From assembly GCA_019057795.1 (NCBI GenBank), contig JAHLWS010000069.1:1-64000 (forward strand): 64,000 bases of DNA, written 5' to 3'. Position numbers and translations under genes: made by a program. Origin of the DNA: Promethearchaeota archaeon (lineage in GTDB: Archaea; Asgardarchaeota; Lokiarchaeia; Sigyniarchaeales; SOKP01). Under the pieces are notes generated by a model. It saw only the letters and a list, made by a program, of their open reading frames with translations. It searched no databases and was not told the origin of the DNA. Position 1 is the first letter of the stretch. Each line of letters starts with the position of its first letter. Shown here piece by piece: positions 1-4,707 of this stretch.

Positions 1-3000
1 AATTAAAGCTAGTCGATCACGAAGACGAAGCGACTGAAGAGGACCTAAAAGAAGAGCTGGATAGAATAGATCTATTAGAGCAAGCTGTAGAATTAGAAGA
101 AATATTATTTCAGCAAGGAGAATCGCAAGAGGAGATAGATGCGAGGGTAGAAGAATCCATAGAACCGACTAAATTTGGGGAAAGCTTAAAAGAAATGATT
201 GAACCAGAACAAGAATCGATTGTAAATAAAAAGCTTAAAAAACTCGATTTAGAGATTAACGAACAAAATTCAAATGAAAATGTTGAAAATGAAGAAAATT
301 TAGAAGTATTAAAACCAGAACTAGATGCTATGGAAAGCGAATCGGACGAAGAGGAAGATGAGCGTCTTCAAGAGTTATATCGCCAAGAAACGAACAGGAG
401 ACCTATATATGCTAGAAAAAAAACAAAAAGTTATAGCCAATGGTTAGAACAACGAGAATTAGGAGCGGAAAAAATTAAAAATTCTAAAAGTGAAAGCGAA
501 AAAATAAAAGAAATTGAAGAAGAGGATTGGAAAACAACCCTTAAACAATGGATAAGAGAGGCTTCCGAAGAAGAATGCAACGCTGAGCTTAAATCCGAGT
601 TAAAAAAAGCCCTTGAGAGTTATGACGAGTTCGAGGATTTGACTCGAAAATTTTTAGAATTATATGAAAAGTCTCAACACAAAAAACTTACTGAAAAAGA
701 AGAGAATAGAATAAAATCCTTAACAGAAAGACTACAGGAGCTAGGCCCAAACCAATTAGAATTATTAGCAAATATTCGGGCTTTTAAAGATTATTTTTAT
801 AATCATTTGTGGGAAGTTATGAACAGGTTTTTTGTTATTCGAGTGCGTAGCAAATTTTTTAAGCATGTCTCGCAGAAATATAAAGAGTTAAGGAAAGAAC
901 AAAAAAACGAGAAAATTAAATATTCCCTTATAATTAAACAGGAGAATGATCTTCATAAGAGAATTTTTAAATATGGTGAATCTCTACATCAAGGGATTGT
1001 ATGTATATATTATATTTGTGAAATATTTCCAAAAAATAGAGAAATCGATAAGAAATATTTTTCTGGAAGCGAACTAAATTATATACTTAATAAACATACT
1101 CAGTTTTTTTATACTATTAATAAAAACTTAAAGGATAAAGATTTAATTCGATATTATGGCTCTATTACAAGAAAGAAGAAATCAAACGAAATGATATATA
1201 TTATTACAGAAAAAGGAATAGAATTTACAGAAGAGATAATAAAAATAAAAAGGCGAGATTTTCCAATATTATTTGATGAGCTAATTGCCACTCTTGAGAA
1301 AAGATATATTGAATATAATAAAGATTTAATTAATTCAGAAAAAAAAAATAAAATTCGATCACATGAAGATATAAATAAGGAATTAAGAAAAATTGCTAGA
1401 CATAATAATGTAGAACTGGTCGATTCATACAGATCTGATCGTTTAGATATAAATTTTCGTTGTAAAAAATGTAAAAAAGAATTTCTAGATATTTATAAAA
1501 ATATAAAAAGAAGGCAACCACCAAAATTATTCTGCCCATTCTGCTTTCCAGAATTAATAAAAAACCCTTCTATTTCTAAAAAGTTAAAAGAACAAATTAC
1601 AAAATATAGCTTGAATAAATTGGAAAGAATTATTATTAATGATTTATCAGAAGTTGAAATTTTAGAAAATATAAAAACGATTAAGGAATCTGTTTTTGAA
1701 CAAATAGAATCTCAATTATCATGTAAAAATTCTGAATTTAAAAGATTTCTAAAGAAATATATTGCTAATATTGTTTGGTTTTTAACAAAGATTAAATTAC
1801 TAAGTGAAACAAATCAAAAAATAAATATAAGCAATGTAGCAAAAGAAACTCATGATAAAAGTTTAACATCATTAAATCAATGGTATAAAATTGTAAAAGA
1901 AATAGTTAGACATTTAAGAGATATCCTTGGTTTCAGTATAAGAACAACACATCAAGATCCTTTATTAATACCAGAATCCTCACGGAATGGTATCAGGAGT
2001 TTCAAGACTTATTATAAACTAATTAAAGGCAGTGATAAAAAAGGCATAACAATTACATATTTAGATATAGATTATAAAACTGAAATCAAAATACATTATG
2101 ATGGTAAATGTCAAGGTTTAGACGAATACTGTCCCTTCAATATTGATCACAAATTCTTACCAAGTCTTAGTCATCACCATAGACTTGAAGGTTATAACAA
2201 AATTATAACAGAAAAAGACTATGAATATATACAACCTAGTAAAATTTTTAGACATTCTCTTCATAGAGCTCTTGAATTATTACAGACTCAAATAGGGGGA
2301 TTTGATTTAATGTGTATAAATTGTCATTCTATTAAACATTCAATAAGATATACTTTTCCTCCTATTTTTAATTTTCTTAAATCATTAACTTTAGAGGATA
2401 TTAAAGAAAATGTATCAGATGTTTTCAATGAAGTAAATATTTTAGCAAATAAATTTCTTGAGCAAAATAAAGAAAGATATAGGATAACCAAAAATAACAC
2501 TATAGCAAAAATAAAAATTGATATAAAAAGATCAATAATAGGATTCGTAAAGAAGAAATATGTAATTGAATATCTATTTGGAGCAAATTATATATGTCCA
2601 GTTTGCCAAAAAGCTAATATTAATGACCACCTCACTTGTTTTGAAGCACATCATACTAACTTAGACTTATTTGAAAAAATTGAAAAAATAGAGTTTGGAA
2701 AGGAATATAAACGCAAACCTATCCCTTGGCTGATTAAGAACTTAATTATACAAGAATGCATCTATCTTTGCTCAAATTGTCATGCAATGATTAAAGCAAC
2801 AATTTATCGAGATTATATTCTCATTATTTTAGAAAACCAAAAAGAAGCTTTCTTTGTTAACAATTTCTATAAACTTTTAGATACACAAATAGCAGTAAAA
2901 AGAAATATAATTTTACAATGGAAAATTCAATTAAAAGATAGAAGTTTAAATTTTGCAAATCCCCTTCGATTAATATTTAAAATGGGAGAAGCTTTAGACC

Positions 3001-3326
3001 AAAAAGTAGTATGTATTTATTATATCTGTGAAGAATTTTCCAGAGATACAAAAAAGCATTTCTTTACTGCCAGTGTTCTTAATTTTATTCTCAATAAATT
3101 TCATACTCATTTTAATAATTATAAAAACCAATTAATCAGTGATGGTTATATACAGTATGTAAAAGGAAGACATCAGTTTAATCAAAAATTTTTTGCAATC
3201 ACTCCTAAAGGTATAGAAAAAGCTAAAGAGATAATTAAAAAAAAAAAAAATGAATTTTCTGAAGAATTTAATATGTTAATTCTTGCTTGGAAAGACCGTT
3301 ATATTGAATATCACAATTCTTCATAA
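1..3326 (+). CDS. Large multidomain protein (5' truncated by window): acidic coiled-coil N-terminus, two related winged-helix-like repeats, Zn ribbon, two HNH-type nuclease domains
   Basis: Frame is open from position 3 to the ATG at 195 (LKLVDHEDEATEED...). Repeat IFKxGExLxQxxVCIYYICE...ITxKGIE...RYIEY at about 963-1320 and 2973-3323; CKKC...CPFC ribbon; HNH-like C..C/HH/CxNCH units at about 2095-2340 and 2570-2790. Confidence 0.75.
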   Translation, partial: LKLVDHEDEATEEDLKEELDRIDLLEQAVELEEILFQQGESQEEIDARVEESIEPTKFGESLKEMIEPEQESIVNKKLKKLDLEINEQNSNENVENEENLEVLKPELDAMESESDEEEDERLQELYRQETNRRPIYARKKTKSYSQWLEQRELGAEKIKNSKSESEKIKEIEEEDWKTTLKQWIREASEEECNAELKSELKKALESYDEFEDLTRKFLELYEKSQHKKLTEKEENRIKSLTERLQELGPNQLELLANIRAFKDYFYNHLWEVMNRFFVIRVRSKFFKHVSQKYKELRKEQKNEKIKYSLIIKQENDLHKRIFKYGESLHQGIVCIYYICEIFPKNREIDKKYFSGSELNYILNKHTQFFYTINKNLKDKDLIRYYGSITRKKKSNEMIYIITEKGIEFTEEIIKIKRRDFPILFDELIATLEKRYIEYNKDLINSEKKNKIRSHEDINKELRKIARHNNVELVDSYRSDRLDINFRCKKCKKEFLDIYKNIKRRQPPKLFCPFCFPELIKNPSISKKLKEQITKYSLNKLERIIINDLSEVEILENIKTIKESVFEQIESQLSCKNSEFKRFLKKYIANIVWFLTKIKLLSETNQKINISNVAKETHDKSLTSLNQWYKIVKEIVRHLRDILGFSIRTTHQDPLLIPESSRNGIRSFKTYYKLIKGSDKKGITITYLDIDYKTEIKIHYDGKCQGLDEYCPFNIDHKFLPSLSHHHRLEGYNKIITEKDYEYIQPSKIFRHSLHRALELLQTQIGGFDLMCINCHSIKHSIRYTFPPIFNFLKSLTLEDIKENVSDVFNEVNILANKFLEQNKERYRITKNNTIAKIKIDIKRSIIGFVKKKYVIEYLFGANYICPVCQKANINDHLTCFEAHHTNLDLFEKIEKIEFGKEYKRKPIPWLIKNLIIQECIYLCSNCHAMIKATIYRDYILIILENQKEAFFVNNFYKLLDTQIAVKRNIILQWKIQLKDRSLNFANPLRLIFKMGEALDQKVVCIYYICEEFSRDTKKHFFTASVLNFILNKFHTHFNNYKNQLISDGYIQYVKGRHQFNQKFFAITPKGIEKAKEIIKKKKNEFSEEFNMLILAWKDRYIEYHNSS

Positions 3327-3343
3327 AAAACATTTTTACTTAA

Positions 3344-4135
3344 TCACTTAAATATTTCATACATTGGAGGCATTTTCCTTTTATGCTCTGCTAATCTCAT
3401 CATTTTCTTAACTTTCTTAACATTCTCCTGATTTAATTCACTTAAGTCAAGACCATATTCCATCCTATATAGAATCTCATCTATAGTATCGTATAATAAC
3501 CCAATTTCTCCTTCATCTGTCTGTCCAATCCACAACCCCGGGGAGGGCGGTTTCAAGATTATTTTTTCAGGAATTTTTAGATTTTCTGCTAATTTTCGGA
3601 CTTCACATTTGTAAAGTGCACCAATTGGTTCAAAGTCTACTCCACTCTAGTGTAGGAATTCGTTTATAATACCTAAATCACCATATTTGGTAAAATACCC
3701 AATTGCATGCTCTGCACGATTGCCTGTACCCGCAACCAAACAATTTCCCTTTGACTGACCATGAAAATACAGGGTTATCATTCGTAATCTGGGTTTTAAG
3801 TTAGCAGATGCCATTTTATTAGTCTTAACTATTGGTTCCATAACTTCTAAGAATTTGTTATATACTGAAGTTAAGTCTATTATTTTAAAGTCGATATCCA
3901 AAACTTTCGCTATTAATTTTGCATCTTCAAGATCTTGAGATACTGATTCACAAGGTAAACCCAATCCAATAACATTTTCTTTGCCAAGTGCATTTGAGCA
4001 TAATGCGGCTGTAACTGCGCTGTCAATTCCACCACTGAGCCCTAGTACAACACTCTCGGCATTAGCAGCCATAACATAGTTCTTAATCCAATTTTGAATG
4101 TCAACAGCTAACTTTTTATAGTCGAGTTTGCGCAT
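3344..4135 (-). CDS. nadE: NH3-dependent NAD+ synthetase, split by a predicted 30-nt BHB intron (exons 4135-3677 and 3646-3344; 253 aa spliced)
   Basis: GLSGGIDS, NLKPRLRM, GYFTKYGD in the 5' part; VDFEPIGALYKCEVR and PPSPGLWIGQTDE in the same frame after the in-frame TAG at 3647-3649. Confidence 0.93.
3647..3676 (-). other. Predicted bulge-helix-bulge (BHB) mRNA intron, UUAGGUAUUAUAAACGAAUUCCUACACUAG
   Basis: Central helix GGUG/CACU, 3-nt bulges AUU and AGA, intron stem UAGG-U-AUU/AAU-U-CCUA, exon pairing UAU/GUG plus UUUAC/GUAGA. Cuts at AU^U and AG^A remove exactly 30 nt including the stop. Confidence 0.85.
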
Positions 4136-4293
4136 AATGTATAATAATCTTCTTTTTATTTAAAACTCATTTAAAAAGCTATTTAAAAGAAAAGATTCAA
4201 ATAATATTTATTAGATCATAAAATTAAAAGAAAAATCTTAATTATCAACTTATATATAATAAAATTTATAGAATTTGAGAAAACTGATTTAGT

Positions 4294-4707
4294 ATGAATG
4301 ACTTCATAACAATTGTTAATTCTTCGTTTGATAATGGTATTCCGTTCTGGATTTATACCAGCGATTATATTTTTGGTATGGTGCCTGTAGATGCAAGTGG
4401 AGCTCGCTGGAAAGAGATATCATACACTTTTGAAGAACCCGATAATCCTCTTTTTATCACAGAGAGAGCTGCCGATTTATCCTTTCAATTTTTGCTTGAA
4501 GAAGTTGAAAAAGGCGTATCCTTTTATGTTGACGACTTAAAAGTACCCATGATAAAGGAATTTGCCAAAACACTCGAAGGAAAACCTGGTCCCGAAAAAA
4601 TGAACGCTATTATATCTGAATTAATCAATAACTCATCAAAATATTCCTCAAAATTTCCAATCATAAAAAACAAAGATGAACTTAACTCTTTAACAAGTAA
4701 AATTTAA
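4294..4707 (+). CDS. Hypothetical protein
   Basis: 137-aa ORF, protein-like composition, divergent from nadE. Confidence 0.7.
   Translation: MNDFITIVNSSFDNGIPFWIYTSDYIFGMVPVDASGARWKEISYTFEEPDNPLFITERAADLSFQFLLEEVEKGVSFYVDDLKVPMIKEFAKTLEGKPGPEKMNAIISELINNSSKYSSKFPIIKNKDELNSLTSKI

What the first reader, a model, noticed from the sequence alone, without database searches (positions are those of the whole stretch)
3647..3676. Bulge-helix-bulge intron inside the protein-coding nadE mRNA
Seen: nadE carries a 30-nt insert with an in-frame UAG inside the conserved YFTKYGD-xG-VD motif. The pre-mRNA UAU-GGUG-AUU-UAGGUAUU-AUAAACG-AAUUCCUA-CACU-AGA-GUG folds into a BHB: central 4-bp helix GGUG/CACU, 3-nt bulges AUU and AGA on opposite strands, an intron stem, and weaker exon-exon pairing (UAU/GUG, UUUAC/GUAGA). 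Established: archaeal splicing endonuclease EndA cuts after the second nucleotide of each bulge and RtcB ligates. Applying that rule (AU^U, AG^A) removes exactly 30 nt and gives UAU GGU GAU AGU GGA GUA GAC = YGDSGVD and a 253-aa NadE. The classic archaeal mRNA BHB intron is crenarchaeal cbf5. Inference: this is EndA-type mRNA splicing of a metabolic gene in a probable Asgard archaeon, which pipelines would call a pseudogene. I cannot confirm novelty without a literature and database search.
Basis: partly seen in the sequence, partly recalled or inferred. Interest (0 to 1): 0.95.

Follow-up and report, generated by a model that had tools for sequence, protein, structure and literature searches.

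The report
tRNA-type mini-intron in Asgard nadE
The only NAD synthetase gene of this Loki-type Asgard archaeon is interrupted by a 30-base insert shaped like a tRNA intron, and comparison with relatives indicates that it is cut out of the messenger RNA, a kind of splicing that the papers I could search report for only one other archaeal coding sequence (cbf5).

Summary
nadE lies on the minus strand (4135..3344) and carries a 30-nt insert (3676..3647) with an in-frame TAG inside the YFTKYGD-GG motif. Removing it joins the Pfam NAD_synthase match without a gap.

Seven distinct 30-nt inserts sit at the same site in 8 of 135 species genomes of the family, in 5 genera. They keep the bulge-helix-bulge (BHB) shape through compensatory changes (92% of cells paired, against 38-54% for shifted pairings). 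The canonical cut rule restores YGD|GGVD in relatives and YGD|SGVD here. Exons of intron-bearing genes are under purifying selection. An independent metagenome contig holds the insert. The genome encodes two EndA subunits and RtcB, and no second nadE.

Best reading: an EndA/RtcB-spliced mRNA intron (confidence 0.85). No RNA data could be obtained.

The intron is patchy and seems to move as DNA with flanking exon sequence. Here it sits in a foreign patch next to a large insertion. That insertion encodes a 1043-aa Cys/His-rich protein that also accompanies the intron-bearing nadE of another genus.

Earlier notes of this scan describe similar mini-introns in other genes of this genome and in other Asgard genomes. 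I spot-checked cobO and looked at the mevalonate kinase DNA.

The parts
3677..4135 (-). nadE exon 1 (153 codons, ATG at 4135-4133, ends ...YFTKYGD)
   Evidence: PF02540 positions 4-143, E 5.7e-44.
3647..3676 (-). 30-nt BHB mini-intron with an in-frame TAG (3649-3647)
   Evidence: same site and length in 7 distinct sequences, with covariation in the stem and central helix.
3344..3646 (-). nadE exon 2 (100 codons plus stop, begins SGVDFEPIG)
   Evidence: PF02540 positions 145-242, E 6.7e-25.
3643..3685 (-). whole BHB motif: exon helix UAU/GUG, central helix GGUG/CACU, bulges AUU and AGA, 8-position intron stem, 7-nt loop
   Evidence: Covariance model R1 scores it at 76 bits, E 6e-18.
3581..3711 (-). 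foreign patch around the intron (about 35 nt of exon 1, the intron and about 66 nt of exon 2) that differs from the otherwise 92-100% identical nadE of congeners G009/G020
   Evidence: identity to L030 falls from 0.96-1.0 to 0.56-0.76 and returns to about 0.9.
3357..3582 (-). 3' part of nadE that is duplicated in contig C4 (555-780) of the same genome; its last ~130 nt are foreign (64-67% identity to congeners)
195..3326 (+). 1043-aa Cys/His-rich ORF of unknown family, convergent with nadE and part of the insertion that displaced the native nadE 3' end; possible nuclease (conjecture)
   Evidence: no Pfam match, only 15 homologues, and a homologue in the same position next to the intron-bearing nadE of G074.

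Best explanation

Inferred steps: the transcript folds so that GGUG (end of exon 1) pairs with CACU (end of the intron). This leaves 3-nt bulges AUU and AGA on opposite strands, closed by an intron hairpin and a short exon-exon helix. The heteromeric (alpha-beta)2 splicing endonuclease EndA cuts after the second nucleotide of each bulge. RtcB joins the 2',3'-cyclic phosphate and 5'-OH ends, and the intron is probably released as a small circle. The mature mRNA reads UAU GGU GAU|AGU GGA GUA GAC and encodes an intact 253-aa NAD synthetase.

Shown here: the anatomy, its conservation by covariation, the exact restoration of the protein, selection on the exons, and the presence of the enzymes.

At the DNA level the intron behaves as a mobile passenger. 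It is present in a minority of species and sits in patches of foreign exon sequence.
For: 1. Excision restores the protein. Removing the 30 nt closes the Pfam profile at positions 143|144-145.

2. Same site and length in relatives. 8 of 135 species genomes of the family, in 5 of 13 genera, carry a 30-nt insert at the same site. These give 7 distinct sequences.

3. Covariation. 92.4% of cells pair, against 38-54% with shifted partners. 5 pairs carry changes on both sides. The covariation score is 0.248 against 0.126+-0.030, with 0 of 500 shuffles as high.

4. The cut rule restores the motif. It gives YGDGGVD in the six other sequences and YGDSGVD here. Ser or Ala at that position occurs in uninterrupted relatives P0025, P0038, P0050 and P0005.

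5. The stop codons differ between species (TAG, TAA, TGA+TAA).

6. Selection. G097 and G105 both carry the intron. Their exons have dN/dS 0.25 and 0.15 at dS 0.34-0.96. Their introns differ at 4 positions, all in the 7-nt loop, with none in the 23 structured positions.

7. Only copy. It is the only nadE found in G000 (100% complete), and also in G097 and in the single-contig genome G105.

8. Real DNA. A contig of an independent cold-seep metagenome spans 3550-3715 with no mismatch.

9. Machinery. The genome has two EndA paralogues, each with N-terminal and catalytic domains, and RtcB. Asgard EndA is reported as the broad-specificity (alpha-beta)2 type with the L1 loop (PMC5829648).

10. Another case in the genome. 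A 29-nt insert of the same architecture splits the P-loop of cobO; I checked it by eye.
Against: No RNA evidence is available. No RNA run holding this sequence was on offer.

On the single sequence the BHB is not the minimum-energy fold. It scores -3.0 against -9.9 kcal/mol. The MFE keeps the 5' bulge, central helix and intron stem, but it extends the central helix by U-A and rearranges the 3' side. The z-score is -0.2.

The exon-side helix is only U.G/A-U/U.G, and its middle pair is broken in G079 and G072. The motif is therefore relaxed on that side.

The spliced product has Ser where most relatives have Gly.

The window's gene is a mosaic next to a mobile insertion, so recent damage cannot be excluded for this one allele from sequence alone.
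Confidence: 0.85

Rival explanations
1. The gene is a pseudogene: a small hairpin-forming mobile insert (MITE-like) has inactivated nadE, and nothing removes it.
For: There is an in-frame stop. The gene sits beside a large insertion and is a recombinant mosaic. NCBI- and JGI-type gene calls stop at 162 aa. Some congeners have no nadE in their assemblies at all (G005, G042, G019).
Against: Both exons are intact in all 8 intron-bearing genomes of 5 genera. dN/dS is 0.15-0.25 between two intron-bearing species. It is the only nadE in G000, G097 and the closed genome G105. The insert always has exactly 30 nt at one site, and its helices are kept by compensatory changes. Strains that differ by 4-12% in exon 1 protein keep the same insert translation (P0001, P0022).
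Confidence: 0.06
2. The insert is translated or skipped by the ribosome: either stop-codon read-through or reassignment that gives a 10-residue loop insertion, or gene-60-like translational bypassing over the hairpin.
For: The insert is in frame (30 nt) and forms a hairpin. aragorn calls a doubtful tRNA with anticodon CUA in the genome.
Against: The stops are TAG, TAA or TGA+TAA depending on the species, so no single reassignment works. Ten extra residues would sit inside the most conserved motif, YGD-GG. No matching take-off and landing codons flank the 30 nt; GAU is not repeated at the 3' end. The covarying pairs include the bulge-flanking central helix with exact 4-bp spacing, which is a feature of EndA substrates and not of bypass signals.
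Confidence: 0.03
3. The gene is split and expressed as two polypeptides that assemble, or the insert is an assembly artefact.
For: A TTG-initiated 70-aa ORF (3556..3344) exists downstream.
Against: That ORF would lack SGVDFEPIGALYK...IPEKIIL, which is conserved in all relatives. An independent metagenome contig contains the insert with 0 mismatches, and seven other genomes carry homologous inserts.
Confidence: 0.02

Closest known systems
BHB intron in the cbf5 (pseudouridine synthase) pre-mRNA of Desulfurococcales and Sulfolobales (Watanabe 2002; Yoshinari 2006; Yokobori 2009, PMC2738675)
   Same: It is a short intron inside a protein-coding sequence, bounded by a BHB or relaxed BHB motif. The host has a hetero-oligomeric broad-specificity splicing endonuclease. 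Among relatives the intron shows gain and loss.
   Different: The phylum differs (Asgard, not Crenarchaeota), and the gene is metabolic (nadE). Splicing is not shown experimentally here. The intron lies in a patch of foreign exon sequence and, in two genera, next to a rare Cys/His-rich ORF, which points to DNA-level mobility. As far as I read, that has not been described for cbf5.
BHB introns of archaeal tRNA genes, very numerous in some Asgard lineages (preprint 10.64898/2026.10.13.758758; EndA types in PMC5829648)
   Same: The motif, the size range (aragorn reports 11-30 nt introns in this genome) and the presumed enzymes (EndA alpha-beta, RtcB) are the same. Gains are repeated and patchy.
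   Different: The host RNA is an mRNA. The exon-side strands are constrained by codons, and the 5' strand of the central helix is the Gly-Asp codons. [quoted passage not shown]
BHB intron in the 5' UTR of Haloferax volcanii HVO_1309 (PMC7714728)
   Same: It is an mRNA substrate of the archaeal splicing endonuclease.
   Different: It lies in the untranslated leader and not in the coding sequence. It has 46 nt, and it was confirmed there by circRNA-seq and in vitro cleavage.
Collaborative homing of an ORF-less group I intron with a free-standing HNH endonuclease in T4-like phages (Bonocora and Shub 2009; Zeng et al. 2009; recalled from my own knowledge, not read here)
   Same: There, as I recall, an intron without its own endonuclease interrupts the target site in a conserved gene, a nuclease gene lies nearby, and the intron spreads with co-conversion of flanking exon. 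In nadE I see the co-conversion patches and a neighbouring Cys/His-rich ORF in 2 of 8 genomes. That nadE's intron site is the ORF's target is conjecture.
   Different: The intron type differs (BHB, spliced by host protein enzymes, not self-splicing). The neighbouring ORF is not shown to be a nuclease, and it accompanies only 2 of 8 intron-bearing nadE genes.
Unconventional cytoplasmic splicing of HAC1/XBP1 mRNA and RTCB-dependent 'SOS splicing' of transposons from animal mRNAs (PMC12779559)
   Same: All are spliceosome-independent. A structure-defined segment is excised from an mRNA and the ends are joined by RtcB-family ligation.
   Different: The endonucleases differ (Ire1, or an unknown enzyme, against EndA), as do the domain of life and the biological role.

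Membership tests
Archaeal BHB intron (substrate of splicing endonuclease EndA) | Two 3-nt bulges on opposite strands separated by a 4-bp helix | tested here: met
   GGUG/CACU with bulges AUU and AGA. The central helix is paired in 100% of cells in 7 sequences, with one double change U-A to C-G.
Archaeal BHB intron (substrate of splicing endonuclease EndA) | Flanking helices on both sides of the bulges (strict hBHBh') | tested here: inconclusive
   The intron-side stem is good: 89% of cells pair and 4 pairs carry double changes. The exon-side helix has only 3 bp (U.G, A-U, U.G), and its middle pair is broken in 2 of 7 sequences. It is not part of the MFE fold. This is a relaxed motif on the exon side.
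Archaeal BHB intron (substrate of splicing endonuclease EndA) | Cutting after the second nucleotide of each bulge yields a functional mature RNA | tested here: met
   It removes exactly 30 nt. The Pfam profile becomes contiguous, and YGD|GGVD or YGD|SGVD is restored in all 7 sequences.
Archaeal BHB intron (substrate of splicing endonuclease EndA) | The host encodes EndA and the RtcB ligase | tested here: met
   Two EndA paralogues (200 and 201 aa, each matching PF02778 and PF01974) and one RtcB.
Archaeal BHB intron (substrate of splicing endonuclease EndA) | Spliced RNA, a circular intron, or in vitro cleavage is observed | not testable with these tools
   No RNA run holding this sequence was listed. 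The single 'RNA?' run is probably DNA, and its contigs do not reach the site.
NAD+ synthetase NadE (Pfam PF02540, ammonia-dependent single-domain type) | A full-length match to the family profile including the SGGxDS and YFTKYGD motifs | tested here: met
   Exon 1 covers profile positions 4-143 and exon 2 covers 145-242. Read through the stop, the score is 239.5 bits. Both motifs are present.
Mobile intron spread by a homing endonuclease (own or free-standing) | Patchy distribution and co-conversion of flanking exon sequence | tested here: met
   8 of 135 genomes carry the intron, and the nadE tree needs at least 4 changes of state. Foreign patches surround the intron in G000 and G016. In G074 the native gene is cut 6 nt from the intron site and replaced by an incoming intron-bearing copy.
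Mobile intron spread by a homing endonuclease (own or free-standing) | An associated gene with a recognisable nuclease domain | tested here: not met
   The neighbouring 1043-aa ORF has no Pfam or PDB sequence match, and its AlphaFold model is poor (pLDDT 51). The only hints are CxxC..HH..CxxCH motifs and a weak language-model lead to HNH. It lies next to nadE in only 2 of 8 intron-bearing genomes.

The most novel reading that the evidence does not exclude
The nadE mini-intron is the passenger and 'immunity patch' of a selfish DNA cassette. In this reading the rare 1043-aa Cys/His-rich protein encoded next to nadE is a site-specific nuclease that cuts intron-less nadE at the conserved YFTKYGD-GG coding site. 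Repair from a cassette-bearing donor copies in the intron with flanking exon, or a whole replacement gene. The intron destroys the target site, and host EndA/RtcB keep the gene functional. This would be collaborative homing with a protein-spliced BHB intron. It would also give a concrete route by which introns invade protein-coding genes in the archaeal relatives of eukaryotes.
Probability: 0.3. Interest if true: 0.9.

Novelty: new member of a known kind. Interest (0 to 1): 0.8.

Why it matters
In the papers I could search, an archaeal BHB intron inside a coding sequence is reported only for cbf5 of Crenarchaeota (PMC2738675). PMC7714728 says so explicitly and adds one 5'-UTR case.

A second, independent case would show that protein-enzyme mRNA splicing is not a crenarchaeal curiosity. 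This one lies in a housekeeping metabolic gene of an Asgard archaeon, has comparative support as strong as that for a structured RNA family, and appears to be one of many in the same genome.

It matters in three ways:
- Annotation: pipelines call such genes truncated or pseudogenes (162-aa calls), which biases metabolic reconstructions of Asgard MAGs.
- Intron spread: the recombination patches and the truncated native gene in G074 make a homing-type mechanism directly testable.
- Origin of eukaryotic features: EndA/TSEN and RtcB are the enzymes of HAC1/XBP1-type mRNA splicing.

Tried and rejected
- RNA evidence: the look-up of sequencing runs listed no holder on record as RNA. The one 'RNA?' run (X20) is probably DNA, comes from a 90-95% relative, and its contigs end before the site. 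This says nothing about expression.
I could therefore not fetch the DNA of the close relatives P0001, P0022 (intron-bearing), P0003 and P0014 (intron-less).
- The single metagenome scan was swamped by the generic GGIDSAVT motif and returned distant NadE only.
- The single-sequence fold does not give the BHB.
- The covariance model R1 finds only nadE in the own genome. A weak hit in G069 lies inside an uninterrupted ORF and is probably chance.
- My own genome-wide scan (strict BHB geometry plus fusion of two open frames of at least 60 codons) recovered nadE but gave no excess over decoy geometries (17 against 11-24). I cannot give an independent count of such introns. The scan misses introns near N-termini, such as the cobO one.
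- ORF1043: there is no Pfam match even at E 10 (only weak zinc ribbons) and no PDB sequence match. AlphaFold gave pLDDT 51, so I made no fold search. Its nuclease nature stays a conjecture.
- Rfam finds nothing on 3300-4300.
- Rejected readings: stop-codon reassignment or pyrrolysine, translational bypassing, a two-polypeptide split gene, and an assembly artefact (see the rivals).

Full report
**Observation.** nadE lies on the minus strand of the window, from ATG at 4135 to the stop at 3344.
- Read straight through, the frame gives ...GYFTKYGD LGIINEFLH* SGVDFEPIG....
- The N-terminal 153 residues match Pfam NAD_synthase positions 4-143. The 100 residues after the stop match positions 145-242 from their second residue. 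Exactly ten codons (3676..3647) therefore interrupt an otherwise continuous family match.
- This is the geometry of a tRNA-type bulge-helix-bulge motif: exon helix, 4-bp helix, 3-nt bulge, intron hairpin, second strand of the 4-bp helix, 3-nt bulge, exon helix.
- Cutting after the second base of each bulge removes 3676..3647 and gives UAU GGU GAU AGU GGA = YGDSG and a 253-aa protein.

**Is it more than chance?** On this sequence alone, no.
- The minimum-energy fold of 71 nt is no better than shuffles (z -0.2).
- The forced BHB costs -3.0 kcal/mol against -9.9 for the MFE. In six of seven species the MFE keeps the 5' bulge, the central helix and the intron stem, but it rearranges the weak exon side.
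- The evidence comes from relatives. A Pfam search of whole genomes found nadE read through one stop, and about 30 nt longer, in two congeners (G016, G057) and in G072, G074, G079, G097 and G105 of four other genera.
- A covariance model built from them finds the element in 8 of 135 species genomes of the family, in 5 of 13 genera.
- All inserts have 30 nt and sit after the GAU codon of YGD. They give seven distinct sequences.
- On the BHB structure, 92.4% of cells pair, against 38-54% when partners are slid. Five of 15 pairs carry changes on both sides. No shuffle in 500 reaches the observed covariation.
- One double change links exon and intron: GGU-to-GGC in the Gly codon is matched by CACU-to-CGCU.
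- The cut rule gives YGD|GGVD in the other six sequences.
- Ser (as here) or Ala at that place occurs in uninterrupted relatives (P0025, P0038, P0050, P0005).
- The in-frame stops are TAG, TAA or TGA plus TAA, so a change of genetic code is excluded.

**Is the gene alive?**
- All eight interrupted genes have intact exons.
- G097 and G105 both carry the intron. Their exons differ with dN/dS 0.25 and 0.15 at dS 0.34-0.96. Their introns differ at four positions, all in the 7-nt loop, with none in the 23 structured positions.
- In G000 (100% complete by markers) this is the only nadE; the other Pfam hits are different families plus a 3' fragment.
- G097 and the single-contig genome G105 also have no other NAD synthase.
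- A 166-nt contig of an independent cold-seep metagenome covers 3550-3715 without a mismatch, so the insert is real DNA.

**Machinery.**
- The genome has two EndA paralogues of 200 and 201 aa, each with the N-terminal and the catalytic domain, and one RtcB.
- Kaneta et al. report that Asgard archaea have the (alpha-beta)2 EndA with the L1 loop, which confers broad specificity for relaxed motifs (PMC5829648). That fits the weak exon-side helix here.
- aragorn finds only 29 tRNA genes, 16 with introns of mostly 11-30 nt. This agrees with a recent preprint on heavily interrupted Asgard tRNA genes (10.64898/2026.10.13.758758).

**Explanation.** The best reading is an EndA/RtcB-spliced intron in the nadE pre-mRNA.
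- Shown: the anatomy, the covariation, exact restoration of the protein, selection, and presence of the enzymes.
- Inferred: cleavage, ligation and release of the intron.
- Missing: any RNA observation. No RNA run holding this sequence was listed, and the one doubtful run did not reach the site.

**How it got there.**
- The intron is scattered on the nadE tree, with at least four changes of state. The window's gene nests with the intron-less genes of G009/G020.
- Against G020 the window's gene is 92-100% identical over most of exon 1. Identity falls to 0.56-0.76 from about 35 nt before the intron to about 66 nt after it, returns to about 0.9, and falls again to about 0.65 in the last 130 nt.
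- In G016 only the first roughly 100 nt of the gene resemble its syntenic congeners (87-89% identity). The rest, with the intron, is foreign.
- Intron-less proteins 89-95% identical to exon 1 are common in metagenomes. One of them (P0014) has the window-type tract after the intron site but no intron.
- The intron therefore moves as DNA together with flanking exon sequence.

**The neighbourhood.**
- Contig C4 of the same genome holds the native 3' end of nadE and its native downstream gene, collinear with G009/G020 at 92% identity over 1715 nt. Window 3357-3582 is the duplicated counterpart.
- So a large insertion (window 1-3343 ... C4 1-554) sits in the 3' end of nadE. Its first gene is a 1043-aa ORF (195-3326).
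- This ORF has no Pfam family. It carries CxxC..HH..CxxCH motifs, has only 15 homologues among 5.8 billion proteins, and occurs in 12 of 135 family genomes.
- A homologue (57% identity) lies in the same convergent position behind the intron-bearing nadE of G074, another genus.
- In G074 a native nadE fragment is 70% identical to the congener G075, against 55% for the full intron-bearing copy. The fragment ends at YFTKY, 6 nt before the intron site, and is followed by the incoming complete gene.
- Breaks of the native gene within a few tens of bases of the intron site, in two genera, are what a site-specific nuclease would leave.
- The nuclease nature of the ORF is not shown: the AlphaFold model is poor, there is no PDB or Pfam match, and there is only a weak language-model lead to HNH. 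The ORF accompanies only two of the eight intron-bearing genes.

**Comparison with what is known.**
- The closest known case is the cbf5 pre-mRNA intron of Desulfurococcales and Sulfolobales (PMC2738675).
- PMC7714728 states that cbf5 was the only mRNA BHB intron reported before its own 5'-UTR case in Haloferax.
- Five full-text searches found no paper on BHB introns in Asgard protein genes.
- I file the element as a new member of that kind. The motif-level features are met, the exon-side helix is relaxed, and the biochemical features could not be tested.

**Context.**
- Earlier notes of this scan (AI notes, not evidence) describe similar mini-introns in other genes of this genome and of other Asgard genomes, several beside putative homing endonuclease genes.
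- I checked two of them at the DNA level. cobO has a 29-nt insert with an 8-bp stem, a GGGU/GCCU central helix and AAA/AUA bulges, and its removal restores GKGKTT. The mevalonate kinase gene has a 31-nt hairpin insert.
- My own motif-plus-ORF scan of the genome gave no excess over decoys, so I cannot give an independent count.

**Verdict.** Interest is high because of the lineage, the strength of the comparative signal and the testable route of spread. RNA proof is still missing.

Noticed in passing
G000 contig C4 (L002) 555-790 and window 3357-3582: The native 3' end of nadE (69-aa remnant) and its native downstream gene sit on another contig, collinear with congeners G009/G020 at 92% identity. 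The window keeps a diverged duplicate. A large insertion therefore lies in the 3' end of nadE and carries its own replacement 3' end.
   Followed up: partly
window 195-3326 (+); paralogue at G000 C78:188141-191524, N-terminal fragments on C75 and C54: This is a 1043-aa Cys/His-rich ORF of unknown family with two CxxC..HH..CxxCH motifs and an internal repeat. It has only 15 homologues in 5.8 billion proteins, all from Loki-type MAGs. It looks like a gene of a mobile element. A nuclease function is a guess.
   Followed up: partly
L152 (G074:C143) 2034-2501 minus, 1511-1996 minus, 147-1319 plus: G074 has a truncated native nadE (ending YFTKY, 6 nt before the intron site) directly upstream of a complete, foreign, intron-bearing nadE. 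That copy is followed by a homologue of the 1043-aa ORF.
   Followed up: yes
L120 (G100:C28:217046-218356): This nadE has no insert but carries a single in-frame TAA where relatives have a Glu codon (NRT*LVIGYF). It may be a nonsense mutation or a sequencing error.
   Followed up: no
L125 (G151) and L126 (G149): nadE of genus g23 carries a 15-residue in-frame insertion without stops in the middle of exon 1. It is a protein-level insertion, not an intron.
   Followed up: no
G000 whole genome: aragorn detects only 29 tRNA genes in a marker-complete 4.95-Mb genome, 16 of them with introns (mostly 11-30 nt). This suggests many multiply interrupted tRNA genes that the program misses.
   Followed up: no
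L159 (G069:C139:3801-3832): A hairpin resembling the nadE intron core (GGTG TGA TATATGAATTT..AATTTATA CAC) lies inside an uninterrupted 352-aa membrane-protease-like ORF. The covariance-model hit is weak (29 bits) and probably chance.
   Followed up: partly
protein P0014 (JGI metagenome, 252 aa): This intron-less nadE is 92% identical to exon 1 but shares the window-type tract EPIGALYKCEVRKIAENL after the intron site. It is either a recombinant or a precise intron loss. Its DNA could not be fetched.
   Followed up: no
L149 (G000:C47) about 1985-2013 minus; L150 (G000:C65) about 2310-2340 minus: cobO is split in its P-loop by a 29-nt BHB-shaped insert, and the mevalonate kinase gene by a 31-nt hairpin insert. 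Both are frameshifting and lie near the N-terminus.
   Followed up: partly
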